64,000 nt of DNA from a virus, in the IMG/VR virus record IMGVR_UViG_3300023276_001265; one strand, 5' to 3'. The position numbers and the translations under genes are program-made. The notes beneath the pieces were generated by a model. That model made no database searches. It was not told where the DNA came from and saw nothing but the letters and a program-made list of their open reading frames with translations. Of this stretch, positions 6,856 to 59,457 are shown one piece after another (the first letter of the stretch is position 1; every line of letters starts with the position of its first letter).

Positions 6856-7083
6856 TTGCGCCTACTGTGCGAGAGTCAGGGACAACTGTTGCTGTGGGAG
6901 GGCATAGCCATGGTCGAAAAGGCCATCGCCGACTACATCAAAGCGCGACACGGTATTGATGTCAGCATTCACCGCTCATCAGGTAACGGAGTCATTGAGT
7001 TTGTGGCTCAGGCTTTCAAGGCTGGGATCGAGTGGCAACGGGGCCAAAACCAGGTAAAAGAGAGTATAGAGGAACCTAAATGA
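6856..7083 (+). CDS. Hypothetical protein (start may be downstream)
   Basis: Stop overlaps the HU start (ATGA). Confidence 0.4.
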   Translation: MRLLCESQGQLLLWEGIAMVEKAIADYIKARHGIDVSIHRSSGNGVIEFVAQAFKAGIEWQRGQNQVKESIEEPK

Positions 7084-7388
7084 AGACTATGACGAAGCGT
7101 GATCTGATTGACCGTATCTGCGAGAGGCGCCCTGAGCTTCGCAAGACAGATGTGACCAACACTATCACCACATTCTTGGACACCATCGGGACTAGCCTCA
7201 CGCAGGACATGCGTGTTGAGCTACGAGATTTCGGCGTGTTCACCCCTAAGGATCGCAAGGCTCGTGTGGCCCGCAATCCCAAGACTGGAGCCCCAGTCGA
7301 GGTCAAGGCCACCAAGGTCTGCGGCTTCAAGGTGGGCAAGGCCCTCAAGACCCGCCTGGCAGAGTCCTACAAGCCATCAGCCGAGTGA
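7080..7388 (+). CDS. HU/IHF-family DNA-binding protein
   Basis: MTKRDLI...VELRDFGVF...RKARVARNPKTG...FKVGKALK. Confidence 0.95.
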   Translation: MKTMTKRDLIDRICERRPELRKTDVTNTITTFLDTIGTSLTQDMRVELRDFGVFTPKDRKARVARNPKTGAPVEVKATKVCGFKVGKALKTRLAESYKPSAE

Positions 7389-9934: not shown

Positions 9935-11227
9935 GTGGACCGTCTTATCTCCGGTTTTCGACTGCTCCCCTCAGGGACAAGAACAGCAAATGGGCCCCTA
10001 AAGCCTAGCGCTGATGATGATGTATGCCCTGAGGCTGTTGCTGAGTTTTTTGATTCAGTTTATATAGCAACCGAGAAGCTGAGATCGTTCGGGCTCTCTG
10101 ATAAGGACTTTGGCGGTCCAATCAAACTTGTCGCCAGAAAAGGCGATGAGAAGGCGAATGGTCGCTACACGCCGGGCACCGACTCAACAGTCATCTTCCA
10201 CCCACCGGTCAGAAGCGCCCCAGATGTGCTGTGGGTAATTATCCACGAGACGTTGCACCGCATCTGGGCGAAGCAGCTCACCAAAGAGTCACATAAAATT
10301 TGGGGCTTAATCTGCAATTCGATTGGTAAGCCGATCGATGGAGATATGGCCGATGCTCTGACCAGGACCGTCAAATCCAATCCTGAGCGTTCTAGTCTCT
10401 GGTTCTTCTTTCAGAAGCACTTTGGGGATGACTTAGGGGTGTTTCGCAACTGGCTCACGACCAAAAAGATGAGCGATTCGTTCCCTAGTGACTACTCCAA
10501 CGCAAACCCGTCTGAGGCGTTCGCTGAAGTAGGAGCGGACATAATCCTTGGGCGAGGTCGAGCTGGCCGAGAGATTCGCCGGTCTGGGTCTATGGTCAAG
10601 AAAGTGTTCTTGTCCCTGGTTCAGAACCTTCGCCATGAAGAGATGTCCGAGGACATAGCACTGGTTCGACACGTTCCCGGCCCCGGAGAAGCTCGATCAG
10701 ATCCGAATTTTCTCCAGCTGCAGGTGGACTTCTACTACTTGCGTTGGAAATTAGGCGATTGGGTCCGCAAGCGCCTGTCTAGTAGTGATGTAATCAAGTT
10801 AGAGGAGCGACCTCACGCGACACTTTATTACGGGGCCGATAGGCGAGACCTAGCTCAGATCCAAAAGATCATCGGAGGGCATGGTCGGTCATTAAGGATG
10901 ATGCTTGGGTCGCTCAACGTATTCGAGCACGAGGATAAGGACATCCTCTATTTTGAGCTGATCGGCGATCCTCTGCCAACTCTACACGCGCAGATCAAAA
11001 AACTCCCAAATACTAGACCGCCGACGCACCCAGATTACGTGCCGCATTTGACTGTGGCCTATATGAAAAAGGGTTCAGCTAGGAAATTCATCGGATCAAA
11101 TCCTTTGCGGATGATCATTAGTGCACGTCGAGTAACGGTAATAGATTCGGTTGGAATCGAATCAATGATCCGCACCACCCAAGCTGAAGAACTTGTCCGG
11201 GAGCCACTACTGCTTGCTGGACGGTAG
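9935..11227 (+). CDS. Fusion of a zincin-like metallopeptidase and a 2H phosphoesterase (gp57B/Acb1-like)
   Basis: IIHETLH with downstream YSNANPSEAFAE; two HxT motifs, PHATLYYG and PHLTVAY. Confidence 0.75.
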   Translation: MDRLISGFRLLPSGTRTANGPLKPSADDDVCPEAVAEFFDSVYIATEKLRSFGLSDKDFGGPIKLVARKGDEKANGRYTPGTDSTVIFHPPVRSAPDVLWVIIHETLHRIWAKQLTKESHKIWGLICNSIGKPIDGDMADALTRTVKSNPERSSLWFFFQKHFGDDLGVFRNWLTTKKMSDSFPSDYSNANPSEAFAEVGADIILGRGRAGREIRRSGSMVKKVFLSLVQNLRHEEMSEDIALVRHVPGPGEARSDPNFLQLQVDFYYLRWKLGDWVRKRLSSSDVIKLEERPHATLYYGADRRDLAQIQKIIGGHGRSLRMMLGSLNVFEHEDKDILYFELIGDPLPTLHAQIKKLPNTRPPTHPDYVPHLTVAYMKKGSARKFIGSNPLRMIISARRVTVIDSVGIESMIRTTQAEELVREPLLLAGR

Positions 11228-12005: not shown

Positions 12006-14285
12006 ATGGCACTTCGCGACGATGCGCTAAACTACCTGCGCCAGGTATTCGGCCGTGAACGCGCCGAGCGTGATCGGGCTGAATCTCCCTCGGCCGAGGC
12101 CGAGAAGCACATCCCGTCATCCATCTTCTCGGTATGGGGCCGAGAAGACGTCGGCGGACTACTCAGCGTCTCGCAGAACCTGATGGACAGGTATGCAGAT
12201 TATGAGCAGATGGATGATTATCCGGACATCAACTGTCTCACTGCAGATACTACGATTTACGTGGTTGAAGACTCCATTATCAAGCCCACTAGGATCCACG
12301 ACCTAGCTGCTCACGGCGGTGGCCCCAAGATCCTGGCCTACGACACAGAGAAGGACAAGCTCGTCGTAGTGGCGTCTGAGAATCCTCGCATTTCTGGCGA
12401 TAAGCAGGAGGTGGTTGAGGTCGGGTTTAGCAATGGTGAGAAAATCAAGTGCACCCCTGGGCACAAGTTCCTCACGGTCGAGCACGATTACATCAATGCC
12501 TCTGATCTAGTCGAGGGAACGGTTGTGGTCTCTTGTTGGTCTGGGTTTGACCCAACAGGAATGACCGCCTTTCTGCACTCAACATCAGGCCGATTGAAGG
12601 TGACCCAGGCCGCGATTCCGGCTGGGGTCGAAGACGTCTACGACGTCACAACTAAGACCCACAACTTCATCGCTAATGGGATTGTTGTCCATAACAGCGC
12701 CCACCACTACTTCACAAACGATGCGACCCAGCCGGATATTGACACCGGAAAAACCGTTTGGGTCCATTCTAGCGACGAAGCTATCAAGAGCATGTCGGAC
12801 GTGCTGCTCAACAAGCGGCTACGAATTGAAGACGATATCTGGTCCATGGTCTACACGACCGTGAAGATGGGCAATAACTACGAGGAGGTGCTGATCACTG
12901 ATAACGGCGTTGTCGGCCTCAACTCTCTTCCCTGCCCCACCATGCGCCGTGTCGAGCAGTCCAATGGCTCGATCATTGGTTACGTCCAGGACATCACTGG
13001 GAAGTTCACGCAGGACGCCTCGGACCTTCGCGGGATGCTGGCCGGTCAGGCTAAGGTCCCGGACCACGTCGCCCTGTTCGAGGAGTGGCAAGTCCTACAT
13101 ACGCGCCTTCGTGGCACGGCCCGCAGAACTCCATACGGGTTCGGTGTGGCTGATGGAGCTCGCTGGATCTGGAAGAGACTGGTTCTTCTCGAAGACTCGA
13201 TGCTCATCTACAAGCTGACCCGAGCTCCAGCCCGGTTCGCCTTCTACATCGACGTCACCGATATTCCATCTGACAAGGTGGAGTCCTTCCTACGCAAAGC
13301 CAAGCAAGACCTGCGGAAGCAGAAACTTGTTAACCCGAGGACCCAGCGCCTCGACATGCGTATGAATCCGATGGACAACCTTCAGGACTTCTTCATCGCG
13401 GTCCGCGAAAATCGCGAGCTAGCCCGTGTAGAGGTTCTCCAAGGCCCTGACTATCAGGCGACCGAGGATGTGGAGTACTTCCAGCGGAAGCTACACGGCG
13501 TCCTGAAGATCCCCAGGAACTATCTAGGGCAAGACGACGGCATCCCAGCCCGATCGATCCTCTCTTACGAGGATGTGCGGTCCGCACGCGTCACGATGGG
13601 AATCCAGCGCGAGGTCAGGAACAGCATTCGTCGTCTGATTCAGATCGATCTTGCGGCCCGAGGGATCAACCCCTTCAGGCAAGACCTTCAGGTGATGATG
13701 ACGGTCCCGTCCGGGATCTATGAGCTGGCGCACAACGAGATCAAGAACGCGAGAGCTGACTTCGCAACGCGAGTCCAGCCGTTTGTCTCAATGCGCTATA
13801 TCCAGGAGAAGATTCTCAAACTGACCGGCGATCAGATAGAGCGGATCGAGAAGGAGCGGGAAGAGGATCAAAAGAAGGAAGCTGCTCAGCAACAGGCTAT
13901 GGGCGGAGGTGATGATGGCGGTGGTGGCGGCGCTCCTGCTGCTGATGGTTCTCCGCCAGATGACGCTCCAATGCACCCAGGAAACGCTGAGATCGGCCCA
14001 CCACCGGGCTCTGGGGGTCGACCAGACAGTAAGTCGGAGTGGAAGTCTTACGATAGGGCGCGGCGCATTGAGGAAAAACGTGATCGCATGTCCCGGCAGC
14101 GTGATCAAGAGATTCAAGACACAATGCACAAGGTCATTGTCGGTAATAAGCAGATGGCCGCACAGCTCGCCCATCAACAGCAATTCTTCCGCGAGTTCAA
14201 GCACGCCGCATTCTCCCGGAACGGGAACGGCGGTCTGATCTCAGCCCCTCAGGGCGGCGGTCATCGACGACGTCGCATTAAGTGA
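12006..14285 (+). CDS. Portal vertex protein (T4 gp20-like) with a mini-intein
   Basis: YEQMDDYPDIN|SA; WKRLVLLEDSMLIYKLTRAPARFAFYIDV; QDFFIAVR; DVEYFQRKL..LKIP. Confidence 0.92.
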   Translation: MALRDDALNYLRQVFGRERAERDRAESPSAEAEKHIPSSIFSVWGREDVGGLLSVSQNLMDRYADYEQMDDYPDINCLTADTTIYVVEDSIIKPTRIHDLAAHGGGPKILAYDTEKDKLVVVASENPRISGDKQEVVEVGFSNGEKIKCTPGHKFLTVEHDYINASDLVEGTVVVSCWSGFDPTGMTAFLHSTSGRLKVTQAAIPAGVEDVYDVTTKTHNFIANGIVVHNSAHHYFTNDATQPDIDTGKTVWVHSSDEAIKSMSDVLLNKRLRIEDDIWSMVYTTVKMGNNYEEVLITDNGVVGLNSLPCPTMRRVEQSNGSIIGYVQDITGKFTQDASDLRGMLAGQAKVPDHVALFEEWQVLHTRLRGTARRTPYGFGVADGARWIWKRLVLLEDSMLIYKLTRAPARFAFYIDVTDIPSDKVESFLRKAKQDLRKQKLVNPRTQRLDMRMNPMDNLQDFFIAVRENRELARVEVLQGPDYQATEDVEYFQRKLHGVLKIPRNYLGQDDGIPARSILSYEDVRSARVTMGIQREVRNSIRRLIQIDLAARGINPFRQDLQVMMTVPSGIYELAHNEIKNARADFATRVQPFVSMRYIQEKILKLTGDQIERIEKEREEDQKKEAAQQQAMGGGDDGGGGGAPAADGSPPDDAPMHPGNAEIGPPPGSGGRPDSKSEWKSYDRARRIEEKRDRMSRQRDQEIQDTMHKVIVGNKQMAAQLAHQQQFFREFKHAAFSRNGNGGLISAPQGGGHRRRRIK
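12234..12695 (+). mobile_element. Mini-intein (154 aa, no endonuclease) in the portal
   Basis: DIN|CLTADT; CTPGHKF; VYDVTTKTHNFIANGIVVHN|S. Confidence 0.95.
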
Positions 14286-14974
14286 AATTCTTCGTCGATG
14301 ACGAAGAGCTTCGCAAGAGCATCGAAAACTTGAAGACGAGCATTCCTGCGGCTGCTAAAGAGGCAGGGCGGAACTCTCTTAGAGAGCTGGCTGAAAAAAC
14401 GGCACAACGTGTTAGGGATATGATCCCTAATGATGGCGGTTGGTACGACATCTACCGAGACAGCATCCAGTTGGATGAGATTAGCCCAGATGAGTATGAT
14501 GTAGTAGCGAAGATCATCGAACTGAACTACGGCGATCTCGAAGCCGACACTACTTTATTGTGGCTCACCGGTGGTGATGATGTGGCGCTGCTAATGGCCA
14601 CAGAGAACCCGTGGACCGTTGACACGCTCCCGTCAGTAAAAGATGGAATCACTACAGAGTTGATCGTTAGACCAGCTTCTGAGTCCGAGACTGATTTCCA
14701 CCGAAGACGACATCGATCGAATGCGACCGAGCTAAAGACGGCGTTGAGCAGGCTTAGGAGGCCTATCCAGCCGAATGAACTAGCCGTCATAAACGGCCGC
14801 ACATTGGCGGATGTCCCGTTTTTAGCCCTCCGAATGGAGTATGGCCTCGGAGGGTTCCCACGTCTGCCAATCTGGAACCGACTCGAAACAGAGGGAGACA
14901 GAATTATGAACTCCTCTGGATTCGGTAAAGAGGCGCTTGAACTGTTTGCCAAGAACTTTGACAAGCAGCAATAG
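14282..14974 (+). CDS. Putative head-tail morphogenesis protein
   Basis: Overlaps the portal stop; helical N-terminus and C-terminal MEYG....P..P.W reminiscent of HK97 gp10-like proteins. Confidence 0.45.
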   Translation: MKFFVDDEELRKSIENLKTSIPAAAKEAGRNSLRELAEKTAQRVRDMIPNDGGWYDIYRDSIQLDEISPDEYDVVAKIIELNYGDLEADTTLLWLTGGDDVALLMATENPWTVDTLPSVKDGITTELIVRPASESETDFHRRRHRSNATELKTALSRLRRPIQPNELAVINGRTLADVPFLALRMEYGLGGFPRLPIWNRLETEGDRIMNSSGFGKEALELFAKNFDKQQ

Positions 14975-15070
14975 GGAAAAATAGCTTTTAGTCAACTGCG
15001 GCCAAAACCGCTTGCCCGATGACGAGCTTCAAGGCCGGTTAACAGCAGCCCACGGCCTGGTGACCGTAAA
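14975..15070 (-). ncRNA. Putative omegaRNA 3' portion and guide of the TnpB (5' boundary unknown)
   Basis: Minus strand: AGGCCG...CGGCCT stem, GAAGC...GGGCAAGCGG-TTTTGG-CCGC-AGTTGAC ending at 14991, then 16 nt TAAAAGCTATTTTTCC up to the convergent gene's stop. Confidence 0.55.
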
Positions 15071-16144
15071 TTTGTTCCTGACATTGAGCGCGGCATTCTT
15101 GCTCATCGGACTTTCGTTGCCACACGAATCGCAGAGGAAGGTGTGTTTTGTGATGCTCCCAGAAGCTCCACAAAGCGAGCACCTCTTCTCGTTACCGGAT
15201 ACGTTCACGTAATAAACCGGTATCGCCGCAGCCGCAGCCTTCTCTTCAATCCTACGACGAAGCACTTCATAGAAGTGCGGCCTCATCGATGGCTTGCTTC
15301 TTTTCCTCTTCGAAGGTGGAGGGATGCGAAGGTCCTCGATGACGAGGATTGATCCGCTTCCAACCCACTCAACGAGTCGGTTAGCTGCTGCGTGGCAAAA
15401 AGTCCTAGTTCGCATGTGACGCCGTCTGCTTAGCCGTTTGAGGACTCGACGCACAGAACGCGTCTCAAGTCCATCTGCCTTACGCACAGCCAGTCGCCGC
15501 TCAAGTCTTCTCTTTGTTTTTCGGCTTGTCTCCTCCATTACATTCTGAGCAACGGTGACGATTCGGAGAGATTTCCCCTCGGCGCTTACCGCTGCTACTT
15601 CATTCTTACTCCCTACTGCAACGCCAGCAGGAAGGGTTCCTTCTCGTTTTGATTCTTTAAGAGTCACGGACACGGTCGCTACGAGTCGTCCCCTTTTAAG
15701 GGAGACCGCGAGTGTGTCGAAGGACTTCACGTTTTTATAGTCAGCCTCGAACCGGGCTGGAATGCTGCAAGGTATGTCCTTACGGCCCGCAATTGTCCAA
15801 ATTCTGATCGTCTCTTTACGGGGTGGGCAGGCATCGCGCTTTGCCTTGCCGATCAAGAATAGGGCGCGTGGCTTACTGAAGTGAATCGGCCCATATATCC
15901 TCCGGTTTCTCCTCCGAGCGCGTGAGTATTCAGATGCCACCGATCGAATAGCAGTGCATGTGAGCTGAGATTTCAGAGAGCCTTTCACTTTTGCGTAGCT
16001 GAGCTGATGCATATCTACTGCGGAAAGCGCGGTTCCGTCTTCAAACGCAATCTCAGACACGCGCTCTTGGATGAGTCTGAATGACTCAATTGTTGCCATA
16101 AGATCAGCGTCGTTGGCAATCCTAAGTGGAAGCACTTTCTGCAT
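15029..16144 (-). CDS. tnpB: TnpB-family protein with substituted RuvC catalytic residues (TldR-like)
   Basis: TnpB-type N-terminus (Y...LKSQL...AIRSVA..Y); RuvC-I GVAVG instead of GVDLG; RuvC-II IEDL; CSLCG/CDSCG zinc finger; RuvC-III SKNAALNV instead of DxNAAxNI; no tnpA nearby. Confidence 0.85.
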   Translation of the reverse strand: MQKVLPLRIANDADLMATIESFRLIQERVSEIAFEDGTALSAVDMHQLSYAKVKGSLKSQLTCTAIRSVASEYSRARRRNRRIYGPIHFSKPRALFLIGKAKRDACPPRKETIRIWTIAGRKDIPCSIPARFEADYKNVKSFDTLAVSLKRGRLVATVSVTLKESKREGTLPAGVAVGSKNEVAAVSAEGKSLRIVTVAQNVMEETSRKTKRRLERRLAVRKADGLETRSVRRVLKRLSRRRHMRTRTFCHAAANRLVEWVGSGSILVIEDLRIPPPSKRKRSKPSMRPHFYEVLRRRIEEKAAAAAIPVYYVNVSGNEKRCSLCGASGSITKHTFLCDSCGNESPMSKNAALNVRNKFTVTRPWAAVNRP

Positions 16145-16287
16145 CAGACCAGTCTACGCACTCGTTGCTGACAGGGTCAACCTCTAGTGCGCATCAATTG
16201 CTTTGTTAGCACCTAATAGTGCTGTGGACCCTCGACTAGCTCTAAGGTCAACAGTTATCATTACGACCTGATGCGATAGGGGAGTTT

Positions 16288-17151
16288 GTGGCTGGGTTAG
16301 AGTTTGGTGAGCGTACTGGAAACGTAGACTTCTACGATTTCGATGAGGCCCTGGTCAGGGGACTCGGGGCGCTACCGGACACTGCAAAGAACCAATACTA
16401 CCTACCGCTTGAAGGTATCTTCGTTCGCATCGATGGGCGCCAGGAGCCTATTGACCGGGCTTTGGTCGTCTACAAGAGGCCTGAACCGACGCAGATCAGT
16501 GCGACAGTCCCAATGATCGCAATCATTCGTGACTCTACGACACCGTCCGAAGAGCGACTTCTCACTCCTGTAGTCTCTTACCGCCTCCCCTGCGAGGGCG
16601 CACAGCAGGTCTCTGCTGGCGGTTGTCTAGGGTGGACCTCCTACGAGCAGAAGGACAAAGAGCAGCCATACGACTTTTTCTACACCATTGAATGCTGGGC
16701 CCGGTTTCGCACCGTTGCACAAATCCTGCTGCAAATGATGATGAAGCGATTTCCCCACCGGGGGACTGTGACCGTCGTCGACGGCATCAATAATCCTCGC
16801 GTCTATGCCACATTCCAACAGGGCGTTGACGACCTTACTGATGTAAGCTCTCTGGTGGAGCGTATCCCAGGGTACTCTCTATCTGTAAAGGTCGAAGCGG
16901 AGCTGACGTTGGACAAAGAGCCTATCTGTATACCAGCCTTCACCGGCACGGTTACTGATCAACCCCTTCCTGGGGTTGGTGGACCGGGCTACCAGCTCGT
17001 TCCAGGGCCTGGCGGCTACGGCCTTGTTCCTGCTGATGCTAATGGGATCCCGCTTTGCCCTGGTGGTGAACGTGATCCTGATCCTGGTGTTGGCGGAAGC
17101 TACGGCACAGGCAAACCAATCGTCCGATCGGGCGTTTACGGGAGTCAATAA
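16288..17151 (+). CDS. Putative tail completion/terminator-type structural protein
   Basis: Position before the sheath; YDFFYTIECWAR segment; function inferred from context only. Confidence 0.45.
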   Translation: MAGLEFGERTGNVDFYDFDEALVRGLGALPDTAKNQYYLPLEGIFVRIDGRQEPIDRALVVYKRPEPTQISATVPMIAIIRDSTTPSEERLLTPVVSYRLPCEGAQQVSAGGCLGWTSYEQKDKEQPYDFFYTIECWARFRTVAQILLQMMMKRFPHRGTVTVVDGINNPRVYATFQQGVDDLTDVSSLVERIPGYSLSVKVEAELTLDKEPICIPAFTGTVTDQPLPGVGGPGYQLVPGPGGYGLVPADANGIPLCPGGERDPDPGVGGSYGTGKPIVRSGVYGSQ

Positions 17152-28400: not shown

Positions 28401-28727
28401 CTACATGTCCCCGATTAGGGTTAGCGCGTTCCGCAAATTAGCGCGAGCCTCGTCTATCTCACCGTTACCAAGAGCCTCTTCTGCGGTATGAATACAGCCG
28501 AGGGCGGTTAGACGATCGAGGGGTCCTGGGTCAGTGAAGACCCTAGCTCCGCATTCACGCAACTTCATGGCGAGTGCTTGGGTCATGGCCGGGTTCAAGT
28601 CCGGAAGAACGACCGGAGCCATGTCCATCCATTGTTTGGAGGTCTTGAGGTCGAACCCGTAGGCGGACCTGATCTCCTTAATCACTGCGATCTTCTTCTG
28701 CCCTGCGTTCTCCAGTTTAATGGCCAT
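28401..28727 (-). CDS. Ribosomal protein bL12 (L7/L12) C-terminal domain protein with C-terminal extension
   Basis: LENAGQKKIAVIKEIR...LKTSK...APVV...KLRECGARV. Confidence 0.8.
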   Translation of the reverse strand: MAIKLENAGQKKIAVIKEIRSAYGFDLKTSKQWMDMAPVVLPDLNPAMTQALAMKLRECGARVFTDPGPLDRLTALGCIHTAEEALGNGEIDEARANLRNALTLIGDM

Positions 28728-56436: not shown

Positions 56437-59400
56437 ATGGATTTCGGGACCAAATCCTACTATTCAAACGCCGTTCAACGCCCCGTGCTCAACATCCGAG
56501 ACAGTGACCGCTTCAAGCTAGCCCCGGAGTTCCTGGCTAAGTTTGAGGGACAAGAGCCTGAGTGGGGTCCAGTCGGAAAGTTCACGTTCAAAAGGACTTA
56601 CGCACGTCCCCTCAGCGAGGACAACCTGGAGACGGAAGAGTTCTGGCAGTGCCTAGAGCGAATCGTCAACGGCGTTTACACGGTCCAGAAGGCGCATTGC
56701 CTCCGCCTCAACCTGCCGTGGCTCGATTCCAAGGCCCAGCGCAGCGCCCAGATAATGTTCGAGCTCATGTGGGACTTCAAGTTCCTCCCTGGCGGTCGTG
56801 GGCTGTGGATGATGGGCACCGACTACGTGGAAAAGCACGGGTCAGCTGCGCTCAACAACTGCCTCGGATACAACACGGAGATCATCACCGCTGACGGGAT
56901 CAAGAAGATCGGTGACTGTGCAGGGACAGTCCAGACGCTGCTGACGCGGGGCGGCAAGTGGGTCGACGCTCCAGTTCGGTCATTTGGACACCAGAAACTG
57001 ATGAGGGTAACGCTGAGGCGTCAAGGCGCGGAGAAGGAGATCTACGCCACTCCCGACCATCGCTGGTTTGCCAAGGATCGACGACAGGCGCACCGGGACA
57101 AGGGACACTCGGAGTTCACGACCGAGAACCTCCGGCCCGAGGTTCATCGCCTCCAGTATGTCTTTGGGCAGGGGATCAAGAACGTCAAGCCATCGGCGTT
57201 CGGCATCGCGCACGGAATCGCTTTCGGAGATGGCACCACCATTCCCGGTGAACGAAATGCTAACTGCTTGTACCTCTGCGGTGAGAAGGATGAACAGTTG
57301 GCTAAGTTCTTCTCACATTGTGCAGTTACCGACGCCCCCGAGGTGTCCGATGGCGGGGCGATCAGAGTAGCTGGGATCCCCAATAGTTTCCGGGAATTGC
57401 CATCGATTCGGGAGAACAAGGCCTTCCTCTTCGGCTGGTTGGCCGGTTATCTCGCGGCTGATGGGAATGTAAGCAAGCAGGGTCAGGTATCGCTGTCGAG
57501 CAGCATCCGCGAAAACATCCTCTTCGTGAAAGATGTGTGCGCCGTCCTCGGCGTGGGGAGCTACTCCATCTCTGAGCAGACTAGAGAGTCAAACCTGACG
57601 GGCAGAGAATCAACCATGTATCGCCTGACACTCATGCGAGATACGTTGAGCGAGAAATTCTTCCTAGTCGATGAACACCGGCGCAACTTCGCCGCCAATT
57701 CCGATGCCTCATCTAGGTATTGGACCGTGTCTGATGTGCAGAAGACCAACGCTGTCGAAGAGGTCTTCTGTGCTACCGTAGATGGTTACGGGGCCTTTGC
57801 GCTGGCGGATAACATCCTGACTGGTAACTGCGCGTTCGTCAGCACCAACGAGATCGACCTCGCCTTCGCAGAGCCCTTCTGCTACCTCATGGACTTTTCT
57901 ATGCTCGGCGTCGGCGTCGGGAGTGATTGCCGTGGCGCTGGCAAGGTTGTCATTCAGCGACCAGTCCAAGGTGATGACGTCCACGTCGTCGCGGATACCC
58001 GCGAAGGGTGGGTCGATCTACTCTTCCGCATCCTGGAGGCATACGTCGGCAACGGCTCACTTCCCAAGTCCATCGACTACAGCAAGGTCCGCCCTTACGG
58101 GGCTCTCATCAAAGGCTTCGGCGGGACAGCGTCCGGGCCGGATCCGCTGATTCGCCTCATTGAGGAGGTGCAGCGCATCTTGAATGCCCTGATTGACCAA
58201 CCGATCACTTCTGAGGCGATCGTTGATCTGTGCGACCTTGTGGGCGTCTGTGTGGTCGCTGGTAACGTCCGTCGGACCGCAATTATCATGTTCGGCGAGA
58301 AGGACGACACCGAGTTCCTCAACCTTAAGAACCCAAAGGTCAACTCAGAGGCCATGAAGAGCCACCGGTGGGCGTCCAACAACTCAATCTTCGCTGATGT
58401 CGGCATGGACTACACCGAGACGGCCGCAATCGCAGCTAAGGCCGGTGAGCCGGGCTACATGTGGATGGATAACGCCCGGAAGTATGGTCGTATGGGCGAG
58501 CTTCGCGAGGACAGCCGCGTCCTCGGGTTCAACCCATGCGCCGAGATCAGTTTGGAGAGTAACGAACTCTGCAACCTGGTTGAGACCTTCCCATCACGTC
58601 ACGCCTCCTACGAGGAATTCGAGCGAACCCTCAAGTTCGCTTACCTCTACGCGAAGACGGTGTCCCTTATCCCGACGCATAACCCCAAGACCAACATGGT
58701 CACGCTCCGCAACCGGCGGATAGGTGTGAGCCAGTCTGGGATCGTCCAGAGCTTCAAGCGCCACGGGCGCCGTCGGCACTTCGAGTGGTGCGATCGGGGC
58801 TACAACTACATCCAAAAGACGGATCGGCTCTACTCGGAATGGCTTTGCATTCGCAAATCCATCAAGACCACCACGGTCAAGCCCGCAGGGACTACATCGC
58901 TGCTACCTGGAGTCACGCCTGGTATCCATTACGAACACGCGGAATACTACTTCCGTACGGTGCGGATTGCGGCTCACAGCCCTCTAGTGGAGGAATACCG
59001 CAATGCTGGGTATCGCGTGGAGCAAGACGTCTACGACAAGTCGGGCCGCACTTCGGTCATCTACTTCCCCATCAAAGCCGAGCTCTTTGAGCGCGGCAAG
59101 TCCGATGTTTCCATCTGGGAGCAAATGGAAAACGCGGCCAAGCTACAGAAGTATTGGTCTGACAACAGTGTCTCCATCACTGTCTCGTTTAAGCCCGAAG
59201 AGGGCGACGACGTTCAGCGCTGCCTGGAGCTCTATGAGAGTCGACTCAAGACGGTGTCCTTCCTCCCATTGAACGATCATGGGTATGAGCAGGCGCCATA
59301 CATCACGATCGATGTGGACACCTACAAAGAAGCTGCGGCTAAACTCAGTTCAACCAGCTTCACTGGAATCGGACACGACATCGACGCGACACCGAAGTAC

Positions 59401-59457
59401 TGTGACGGCGATCAGTGCACCGTCTCGTTCGGATCCACGGAGCAAGCTCTCCCGTAG
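56437..59457 (+). CDS. nrdJ: Class II (B12-dependent, monomeric RTPR-type) ribonucleotide reductase with an intein
   Basis: FKRTYAR; FLPGGRGLW; ALNN|CAF; VVAGNVRRTA; NPCAEI.L...ELCNL; TTVKPAGT.S; C-terminal CDGDQC. Confidence 0.95.
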   Translation: MDFGTKSYYSNAVQRPVLNIRDSDRFKLAPEFLAKFEGQEPEWGPVGKFTFKRTYARPLSEDNLETEEFWQCLERIVNGVYTVQKAHCLRLNLPWLDSKAQRSAQIMFELMWDFKFLPGGRGLWMMGTDYVEKHGSAALNNCLGYNTEIITADGIKKIGDCAGTVQTLLTRGGKWVDAPVRSFGHQKLMRVTLRRQGAEKEIYATPDHRWFAKDRRQAHRDKGHSEFTTENLRPEVHRLQYVFGQGIKNVKPSAFGIAHGIAFGDGTTIPGERNANCLYLCGEKDEQLAKFFSHCAVTDAPEVSDGGAIRVAGIPNSFRELPSIRENKAFLFGWLAGYLAADGNVSKQGQVSLSSSIRENILFVKDVCAVLGVGSYSISEQTRESNLTGRESTMYRLTLMRDTLSEKFFLVDEHRRNFAANSDASSRYWTVSDVQKTNAVEEVFCATVDGYGAFALADNILTGNCAFVSTNEIDLAFAEPFCYLMDFSMLGVGVGSDCRGAGKVVIQRPVQGDDVHVVADTREGWVDLLFRILEAYVGNGSLPKSIDYSKVRPYGALIKGFGGTASGPDPLIRLIEEVQRILNALIDQPITSEAIVDLCDLVGVCVVAGNVRRTAIIMFGEKDDTEFLNLKNPKVNSEAMKSHRWASNNSIFADVGMDYTETAAIAAKAGEPGYMWMDNARKYGRMGELREDSRVLGFNPCAEISLESNELCNLVETFPSRHASYEEFERTLKFAYLYAKTVSLIPTHNPKTNMVTLRNRRIGVSQSGIVQSFKRHGRRRHFEWCDRGYNYIQKTDRLYSEWLCIRKSIKTTTVKPAGTTSLLPGVTPGIHYEHAEYYFRTVRIAAHSPLVEEYRNAGYRVEQDVYDKSGRTSVIYFPIKAELFERGKSDVSIWEQMENAAKLQKYWSDNSVSITVSFKPEEGDDVQRCLELYESRLKTVSFLPLNDHGYEQAPYITIDVDTYKEAAAKLSSTSFTGIGHDIDATPKYCDGDQCTVSFGSTEQALP
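56860..57828 (+). mobile_element. LAGLIDADG intein in nrdJ (323 aa)
   Basis: LNN|CLGYNT; ATPDHRW; HGIAFGDG and LAGYLAADG; VFCATV...NILTGN|C. Confidence 0.93.

What the first reader, a model, noticed from the sequence alone, without database searches (positions are those of the whole stretch)
14975..16144. Nuclease-dead TnpB with a retained omegaRNA-like end inside the virion gene cluster
Seen: RuvC-I Asp replaced by Ala (GVAVG) and RuvC-III Asp missing (SKNAALNV), with the ORF and zinc finger intact and no tnpA. The scaffold-like 3' end ...GGGCAAGCGGTTTTGGCCGCAGTTGAC is followed by exactly 16 intergenic nt, TAAAAGCTATTTTTCC. The start codon overlaps the phage's TGATGC motif, is preceded by TAGACT, and has no obvious SD. 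Established: TldRs are RNA-guided repressors derived from TnpB, described next to prophage fliC, oppF and csrA. Inference: an independent domestication in a large phage, with an AT-rich guide suited to a promoter target in the host or elsewhere in the phage.
Basis: partly seen in the sequence, partly recalled or inferred. Interest (0 to 1): 0.8.

Follow-up and report, generated by a model that had tools for sequence, protein, structure and literature searches.

The report
Phage-fixed dead TnpB, nine-base guide
A family of large uncultured phages has kept, at one fixed spot between its neck and tail genes, a transposon-derived RNA-guided protein that has lost its DNA-cutting residues but kept its guide RNA; relatives preserve each step from empty site to intact nuclease to dead binder, but the DNA it aims at is still unknown.

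Summary
Observation confirmed; one detail corrected. The 371-aa ORF (15029-16144, minus strand) is a TnpB with D176A and D348S, intact E270 and intact zinc finger. All 39 non-redundant close homologues share this state, under purifying selection (dN/dS about 0.1-0.16). Every locus checked lies between the neck and tail-terminator genes. The RNA scaffold is real: synonymous sites are frozen and the pseudoknot covaries. The conserved guide is 9 nt (N-AAAAGCTA), not 16; the 16-nt gap is specific to this genome. Added here: a sister clade at the same locus with the same guide, six of ten with an intact D-E-D; a basal intact member with a different guide; and outgroup phages with the empty site, which carries the ancestral family's TAM (CCAY). 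The catalytic Asp changed state at least twice. No target was found in two phage genomes or about 270 sampled bacteria; host unknown; no RNA data. Best reading: an independent TldR-like RNA-guided DNA binder (about 0.55). The scan reported this clade twice before on other genomes.

The parts
15029..16144 (-). Nuclease-dead TnpB ORF, 371 aa. A176 (15617-15619) and S348 (15101-15103) replace the catalytic Asp residues; E270 (15335-15337) is kept; clade-specific invariant acidic residue E182 (15599-15601); Cys4 zinc finger 322-341
14991..15067 (-). Core of the omegaRNA scaffold, overlapping the last 13 codons: stem 15052-15067; stem from 15051 whose loop carries the pseudoknot arm 15038-15043; stem 15014-15027; shortened right-end hairpin 14998-15011; 3' pseudoknot arm 14991-14996. 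The 5' end is not mapped; synonymous constraint starts near codon 349 (about 15100)
14982..14990 (-). Conserved 9-nt guide. Position 1 varies; positions 2-5 and 7-9 are invariant in 23 of 24 loci; position 6 is G in 20 of 24
   Evidence: guide start fixed by the free-IS empty-site test
14975..14981 (-).
16151..16180 (-). Predicted sigma70-type promoter of the dead tnpB: -35 TTGACC (16175-16180), 18-nt spacer, -10 TAGACT (16151-16156), 6 nt to the ATG (predicted leaderless mRNA)
   Evidence: same layout in free IS relatives
16157..16191 (.). Inverted repeat flanking the -35 (arms 16186-16191 and 16157-16162), inherited from the free IS; function unknown
16232..16282 (+). Predicted divergent promoter of the tail-terminator/sheath operon: -35 TCGACT (16232-16237), 18-nt spacer, -10 TATCAT (16256-16261), TGATGC at 16269, SD at 16278. 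The -35 stands where empty alleles carry the TAM, so it marks the inferred left junction
14282..14974 (+). Right-flank gene, 230 aa, HK97 gp10-like neck/tail-completion protein (lead from language-model features), convergent with the RNA
16288..17151 (+). Left-flank gene, 287 aa, T4 gp15-like tail terminator/sheath stabiliser (lead from language-model features), divergent

Best explanation
A domesticated, TldR-like RNA-guided DNA binder. SHOWN: it descends from a tnpB-only IS200/IS605-type element (family TAM CCAY) and occupies a junction that, in outgroup phages, is empty and carries CCAY at the upstream edge of the tail-operon promoter. It has lost the left end and most of the right-end hairpin and is inherited vertically. 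Protein, promoter motifs, scaffold and a 9-nt guide are all conserved. The guide was fixed before RuvC decayed, because nuclease-intact sisters carry the same guide. INFERRED: it is transcribed as a leaderless mRNA from a sigma70-type promoter; the protein binds the RNA encoded in its own 3' end; the complex recognises a TAM plus about 8-9 bp in trans (host chromosome, the unsequenced half of the phage, or a co-infecting element); and it blocks RNA polymerase without cutting. A match of only 9 nt would already make an intact TnpB a binder rather than a cutter, which would explain why catalytic residues were then lost more than once. The present TAM may differ from CCAY, because predicted TAM-proximal residues changed in the phage lineage.
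For: 39 of 39 close homologues lack both Asp residues and keep E270 and four Cys; 46 of 46 free IS proteins are D-E-D. dN/dS is 0.09-0.16 with synonymous sites near saturation. The locus is the same in every contig examined, even where the portal gene has moved away (L117, L119). Scaffold: synonymous identity 0.62 and 0.86 in the last 23 codons against 0.26-0.60 elsewhere; the sequence is conserved across a reading-frame shift between dead and sister clades; the pseudoknot is 100% paired with two-sided changes at 3 of 6 pairs, and the whole structure is 98.8% paired against at most 42% for slid controls. Guide positions 2-5 and 7-9 are invariant in 23 of 24 loci, whereas the portal and sheath stop codons vary freely, and the guide's TAG persists where the neck stop moved upstream. 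TAM boundary: empty alleles in 13 of 48 Methanoculleus genomes. Phage empty sites carry CCAT or CCAC. Tree: phage members form one clade, 100/100, with the intact P0047 basal; a single clade of Asp-less proteins is rejected, p-AU 0.0008. Literature: the oppF TldR uses a 9-nt guide (PMC13622181); a 10-nt guide makes active ISDge10 TnpB bind without cutting (PMC13507860); the TldR seed is about 6 nt (10.1101/2023.11.30.569447).
Against: No target was found. Part of the guide's conservation has another possible cause: positions 7-9 are the neck gene's stop codon in most members, and the same TAG followed by a T run is conserved in empty-site phages, in one case after the stop moved (L155). Guide position 1, normally part of the seed, varies (G13, T7, A4). 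The basal intact member has a different guide. The tree cannot exclude one loss plus one reversion of the RuvC-I Asp. Binding and repression were not tested.
Confidence: 0.55

Rival explanations
1. Guide-independent or cis role. The protein-RNA complex is useful but not programmed. The A-tract and TAG are conserved as a plus-strand cis element (stop codon, -10-like hexamer), and the locus serves to insulate or antisense-regulate read-through from the portal-neck operon into the tail operon. Alternatively the complex is a TAM-only or non-specific DNA binder, or a decoy against host TnpB systems.
For: TAG plus a T run is conserved in empty alleles too. Guide position 1 is free. No target was found. 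The gene is convergent with the neck gene and shares a tightly conserved 143-nt divergent promoter region with the tail operon. The protein is very basic (mean net charge +44).
Against: Three invariant A positions (2, 3, 5) are explained neither by a stop codon nor by a TAnnnT hexamer. The perfect plus-strand -35 in this genome (14958-14963) is not conserved. The U-tract precedes the hairpins rather than following them, so it is not a terminator. REC/WED residues such as H46, Y50, Q60, R67, R103 and D104 are invariant as in active relatives.
Confidence: 0.2
2. Phage-versus-phage weapon derived from homing. The ancestral guide matched the empty allele, whose protospacer overlaps the -35 of the tail-operon promoter. 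Intact sisters would cut, and dead members would silence, the tail operon of co-infecting relatives that lack the element.
For: The empty site is TAM plus a sequence equal to guide positions 4-9. Six sisters keep D-E-D and all ten keep the RuvC-III Asp. The genome is rich in homing-type elements (portal intein, HNH, LAGLIDADG).
Against: The present guide has three extra TAM-proximal bases, so it matches only 2-3 nt of the empty alleles sampled. No empty allele was found among close relatives (tail-terminator identity above about 63%). A direct search for a guide-matching empty junction gave 117 hits, about what chance gives, and none lay in this gene context.
Confidence: 0.1
3. Not truly dead: a rearranged active site. 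The clade fixed a new carboxylate at position 182, six residues after the lost Asp. With E270 and D271 it could bind metal for nicking or for processing its own RNA.
For: Position 182 is acidic in 39 of 39 dead proteins and in 0 of 57 others; E270 and D271 are invariant. The TldR paper warns that catalytic residues can relocate.
Against: Two of the three canonical carboxylates are lost, which is the published criterion for inactivity. K349 and R194 could equally pair with E182 as a structural plug. A 9-nt duplex is too short to activate RuvC. The geometry could not be inspected because no coordinates are returned.
Confidence: 0.1
4. Neutral, decaying transposon relic.
For: No transposase, degenerate ends, no known target. 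One homologue (P0028) ends aberrantly at 314 aa.
Against: dN/dS about 0.1, open frames in nearly all homologues, invariant zinc ligands, and compensatory RNA changes across saturated synonymous divergence.
Confidence: 0.02

Closest known systems
TldR, TnpB-like nuclease-dead repressors: fliC_P-, oppF- and csrA-associated clades (10.1101/2023.11.30.569447; PMC13622181)
   Same: TnpB with two D-E-D substitutions, no tnpA, lost transposon ends, fixed non-transposon neighbours, a guide RNA at the 3' end and a short conserved guide (9 nt, as in the oppF TldR).
   Different: Different ancestor (CCAY-TAM family, against GTTAT and TTTAA). Full-length protein with the zinc finger intact. It lies in the virion module of large T4-like myophages, with no neighbouring paralogue of an obvious target gene. 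Intact and singly mutated relatives persist at the same locus with the same guide, whereas in the fliC_P clade gene association and inactivation coincided. No target known.
Free tnpB-only IS200/IS605 (IS1341-type) elements of Methanoculleus, Methanothrix, Ktedonobacteria and cyanobacteria (loci L025-L114)
   Same: 33-40% identity; same scaffold architecture and 3' end; same promoter layout with a flanking inverted repeat; CCAY at the insertion site.
   Different: They are D-E-D intact (46 of 46), multicopy, with variable guides and full left and right hairpins. The phage copy is single, immobile and has a fixed guide, with K58, A101, K102 and a relaxed T62 in the predicted TAM-reading region.
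dCas12f-sigmaE activators (PMC13472631) and Cas12m/Cas12k
   Same: Cas12/TnpB fold without cleavage, used for RNA-guided DNA binding (structural hits 9n9c, 8hhm, 7n3o).
   Different: No CRISPR-like array or transposase beside the gene, and no neighbouring gene with a sigma-factor hit; the RNA is an omegaRNA overlapping the ORF.

Membership tests
TnpB (IS200/IS605) | REC/WED-RuvC-zinc finger fold | tested here: met
TnpB (IS200/IS605) | Intact D-E-D triad | tested here: not met
   A176-E270-S348
TnpB (IS200/IS605) | Intact left and right ends, mobility | tested here: not met
   Left hairpin and TAM gone, right hairpin shortened, single fixed locus; no tnpA
TldR (functional class) | Two or more RuvC D-E-D substitutions, conserved in a clade | tested here: met
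   39 of 39
TldR (functional class) | No tnpA or transposon ends; stable association with non-transposon genes | tested here: met
TldR (functional class) | Adjacent conserved guide-RNA scaffold | tested here: met
   covariation and synonymous constraint
TldR (functional class) | Guide RNA expressed and bound by the protein | not testable with these tools
   no RNA holder listed; needs RIP-seq
TldR (functional class) | TAM-flanked target in or near a promoter | tested here: inconclusive
   none found; host unknown, record 48% complete, TAM possibly shifted
TldR (functional class) | Represses transcription and does not cleave | not testable with these tools
   needs reporter and cleavage assays
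Described TldR clades (fliC_P, oppF, csrA) | Association with fliC, oppF or csrA and descent from GTTAT or TTTAA-TAM TnpBs | tested here: not met
   Neighbours are neck and tail genes; nearest free relatives use CCAY. TldR sequences themselves were not available for the tree

The most novel reading that the evidence does not exclude
Domestication happened guide-first. A phage lineage fixed a roughly 9-nt guide on a still-intact TnpB, turning it into a binder, and RuvC then eroded repeatedly. The complex acts in lytic development of large phages in a role not described for TldRs, for example silencing a conserved host locus or the tail-operon promoter of competing phages, possibly with a remodelled active-site pocket (E182).
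Probability: 0.25. Interest if true: 0.8.

Novelty: new variant of a known kind. Interest (0 to 1): 0.57.

Why it matters
Only three TldR clades are described, and their authors expect more (PMC13622181). This one comes from a different TnpB family and sits in the core virion module of large phages. Its main value is the preserved series at one locus: empty site with TAM; basal intact nuclease with another guide; intact nuclease with the fixed 9-nt guide; single mutants; double mutants. That makes the order of events in turning a transposon nuclease into a regulator directly testable with five or six synthesised genes. It also offers a 371-aa binder with an RNA of about 100 nt and probably a non-T-rich TAM. 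Until a target is found, the biological role is open.

Tried and rejected
Target in this record: the 8-mer seed occurs at only one other place, in coding DNA and without CCAY; CCAY plus a partial seed occurs at chance level. Relative G001: the one 9/9 match is the start of a small gene after a tRNA-Ser, about one expected by chance. Shifted-TAM idea (GCAY, from the promoter inverted repeat and the TGATGC motif): the best hits (window 56412, before the class II ribonucleotide reductase; G001 188991) are not orthologous, and the motif has no extension resembling the guide; rejected for now. Host target with CCAT plus seed: no excess over reversed-pattern controls in 151 Planctomycetota and 121 deltaproteobacterial genomes (searches drew the same sample), and hits share no common locus. 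23S rRNA resemblance (from memory): one fetched 23S has the 8-mer, but the PVC 23S copies fetched mostly differ, the upstream bases are not CCAY, and guide variation does not track rRNA variation; weak lead only. Host assignment by HU/IHF (at most 48% identity, mostly Binatia) and peptide deformylase (at most 30%) was uninformative. Rfam: no match. GenBank phages: no relative. No RNA holder listed. No excision joint in four DNA runs, but these are contigs and drop rare variants. A terminator explanation for the A-tract was rejected on geometry. Supplements of the TldR paper held as text do not contain sheath, portal or tail (weak). Single-strand folding of the RNA gave only z = -1.7, which is expected for a pseudoknotted RNA.

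Full report
Observation. The window lies in a 134,749-bp linear virus record, 48% complete, found in seawater metagenomes. It has a T4-like portal and a tail sheath; its relative G001 has a gp23-type capsid. The minus-strand ORF 15029-16144 encodes 371 aa with TnpB profile hits. The AlphaFold model (pLDDT 85.5) matches Cas12f and TnpB structures. The catalytic positions read A176, E270 and S348, and the four zinc Cys are intact. No Y1 transposase is present here or in G001. The neighbours are a 230-aa HK97 gp10-like neck protein (convergent) and a 287-aa T4 gp15-like tail terminator (divergent); both names are leads from language-model features.

A selected clade, not a relic. Sixty-four homologues were found. 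In a non-redundant set, 39 proteins at 57-84% identity all lack both aspartates: position 176 is A in 21 and S in 18; position 348 is S in 38 and G in 1. All keep E270, D271 and the four Cys. Pairwise dN/dS is 0.09-0.16 with pS of 0.5-0.75. Every contig examined has the gene between the same two genes, including a lineage in which the portal is no longer adjacent (L117, L119).

An evolutionary series at one locus. A sister clade (43-50% identity) occupies the same position (the locus was not checked for P0038-40 and P0043). Six of its ten members keep D-E-D, and four have lost only the first Asp (N, N, S, G). The most basal member, P0047/L362, is also at this locus, is intact, has a longer right-end hairpin and carries a different guide. 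All 46 free IS relatives are D-E-D. The careful tree gives the phage members one clade (100/100) with P0047 basal, dead 100/100 and sister 100/99. A single clade of all Asp-less proteins is rejected (p-AU 0.0008). So the first Asp was lost at least twice, or lost once and regained. Five more distant phage genotypes (tail terminator 45-57% identical) have no tnpB here: the two genes are 30-45 nt apart, and the complete 275-kb genome G003 has no TnpB at all.

Ancestral TAM and insertion point. Free copies begin after CCAT, or CCAC in Ktedonobacter. Joining the flanks of the Methanoculleus element predicted an empty allele, which was found in 13 of 48 genomes of that genus. This fixes both the TAM boundary and the first guide base. 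The phage empty sites read CCAT (three) or CCAC (two), in four of the five cases followed by three bases and the reverse complement of a TAG. That CCAY is the upstream edge of a predicted leaderless promoter for the tail operon. I infer that this is where the element landed. In filled phages the same position is a TCGACT -35, so the left end and TAM have been overwritten.

The RNA. Synonymous identity rises to 0.62 and 0.86 in codons 349-371, against 0.26-0.60 elsewhere. Dead and sister clades read this stretch in different frames yet keep the nucleotides. The structure with four stems and a pseudoknot (15038-15043 with 14991-14996) is 98.8% paired over 21 loci, against 13-42% for slid controls. 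The pseudoknot is 100% paired with two-sided changes at three of six pairs. The scaffold is therefore under selection as RNA. Expression could not be examined.

The guide. Across 24 distinct loci, position 1 varies (G13, T7, A4). Positions 2-5 (AAAA) and 7-9 (CTA) are invariant except in the basal member, position 6 is G in 20, and conservation fades after position 10. In most members positions 7-9 are the neck gene's stop, so the '16 intergenic nt' is peculiar to this genome. For selection on the guide: portal and sheath stop codons vary (TAG/TAA/TGA 10/5/1 and 10/8/2) while this TAG does not, and it persists where the true stop moved upstream (window, L142, L123). Against: empty alleles also conserve TAG and a T run, once after a stop shift (L155). 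Three invariant A positions remain unexplained by stop or promoter constraints. A 9-nt guide matches the oppF TldR (PMC13622181), and a 10-nt guide turns active TnpB into a non-cutting binder (PMC13507860).

Expression signals. The 143-nt upstream region holds two divergent sigma70-type promoter motifs with 18-nt spacers; the tnpB one is predicted leaderless. The TGATGC motif is intergenically enriched, but its overlap with the start codon is not conserved.

Target search. Nothing convincing was found in this record, in G001 (89% complete), in outgroup phages or in sampled bacteria. The search is limited in three ways: the host is unknown; half the genome is missing; and the TAM may have shifted, since the phage lineage changed S/N58 to K, R101 to A and G102 to K and relaxed T62, while H46, Y50, Q60, R67, R103 and D104 stayed fixed. 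Assigning these residues to TAM reading is by analogy and was not tested.

Mechanism and rivals. The best reading is a trans-acting RNA-guided DNA binder that blocks RNA polymerase (0.55). Rivals are a guide-independent or cis role (0.2), a weapon against empty-allele competitors (0.1), a rearranged active site using the clade-specific E182 (0.1; acidic in 39 of 39 dead proteins and 0 of 57 others), and a neutral relic (0.02).

Comparison and verdict. It meets every TldR criterion that sequence can test, but it belongs to none of the three described clades. Binding, target and repression are untested. It is a new variant of a known kind. Two earlier reports of this scan described the same clade on other genomes; I reached the same reading before looking and tested it independently. 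The summaries I could see do not mention the intact sister clade, the basal member, the empty site with its TAM, or the 9-nt limit. Interest 0.57.

Noticed in passing
L010:12377-13453 (also L009): A second, unrelated, canonical TnpB (358 aa, catalytic motifs intact by eye) is inserted between the portal and the 242-aa gene of one relative; probably a recent IS insertion.
   Followed up: partly
free IS loci L025-L101, about 30-55 nt upstream of tnpB; window 16157-16191: The tnpB promoter is bracketed by an inverted repeat whose arms usually begin with the family's own TAM-like 4-mer (CCAC, or CCAT in cyanobacterial copies), facing each other. Possible autoregulation or a repressor operator (compare Arc, 10.64898/2026.09.24.754181). 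Retained in altered form in the phage.
   Followed up: partly
whole record and G001, intergenic regions: The hexamer TGATGC/GCATCA is enriched about three-fold in intergenic DNA of both genomes, with no extended consensus; probably a regulator site. Several genes show a -10 hexamer 6-7 nt before the start codon (leaderless).
   Followed up: partly
window 9935-11227: 430-aa gene with a C-terminal 2H phosphoesterase domain (2_5_RNA_ligase2; weak Acb1 hit), conserved upstream of the portal in most of the family; a candidate anti-defence protein.
   Followed up: no
window 12006-14285; L115, L123, L142: The portal gene carries an intein here and several, some with endonuclease domains, in relatives; the 242-aa gene upstream has an HNH domain.
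   Followed up: no
window 28401-28727, 7080-7388, 56437-59457: Ribosomal L7/L12 C-terminal-domain protein, HU/IHF, and a class II ribonucleotide reductase with a LAGLIDADG insert.
   Followed up: partly
window 14958-14987 (+): A perfect TTGACA, 18 nt, then a TAnnnT hexamer overlapping the guide could drive an antisense RNA in this genome; the -35 is not conserved in relatives.
   Followed up: partly
G002:C1:98273-98440: An empty-site outgroup phage encodes a 663-aa open frame with a TnpB/Cas12f-type zinc-finger domain elsewhere in its genome.
   Followed up: no
P0065, P0068: Other relatives of this TnpB family (36-38% identity) also lack the RuvC-I Asp while keeping the third Asp; context unknown, possibly further domestications.
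   Followed up: no
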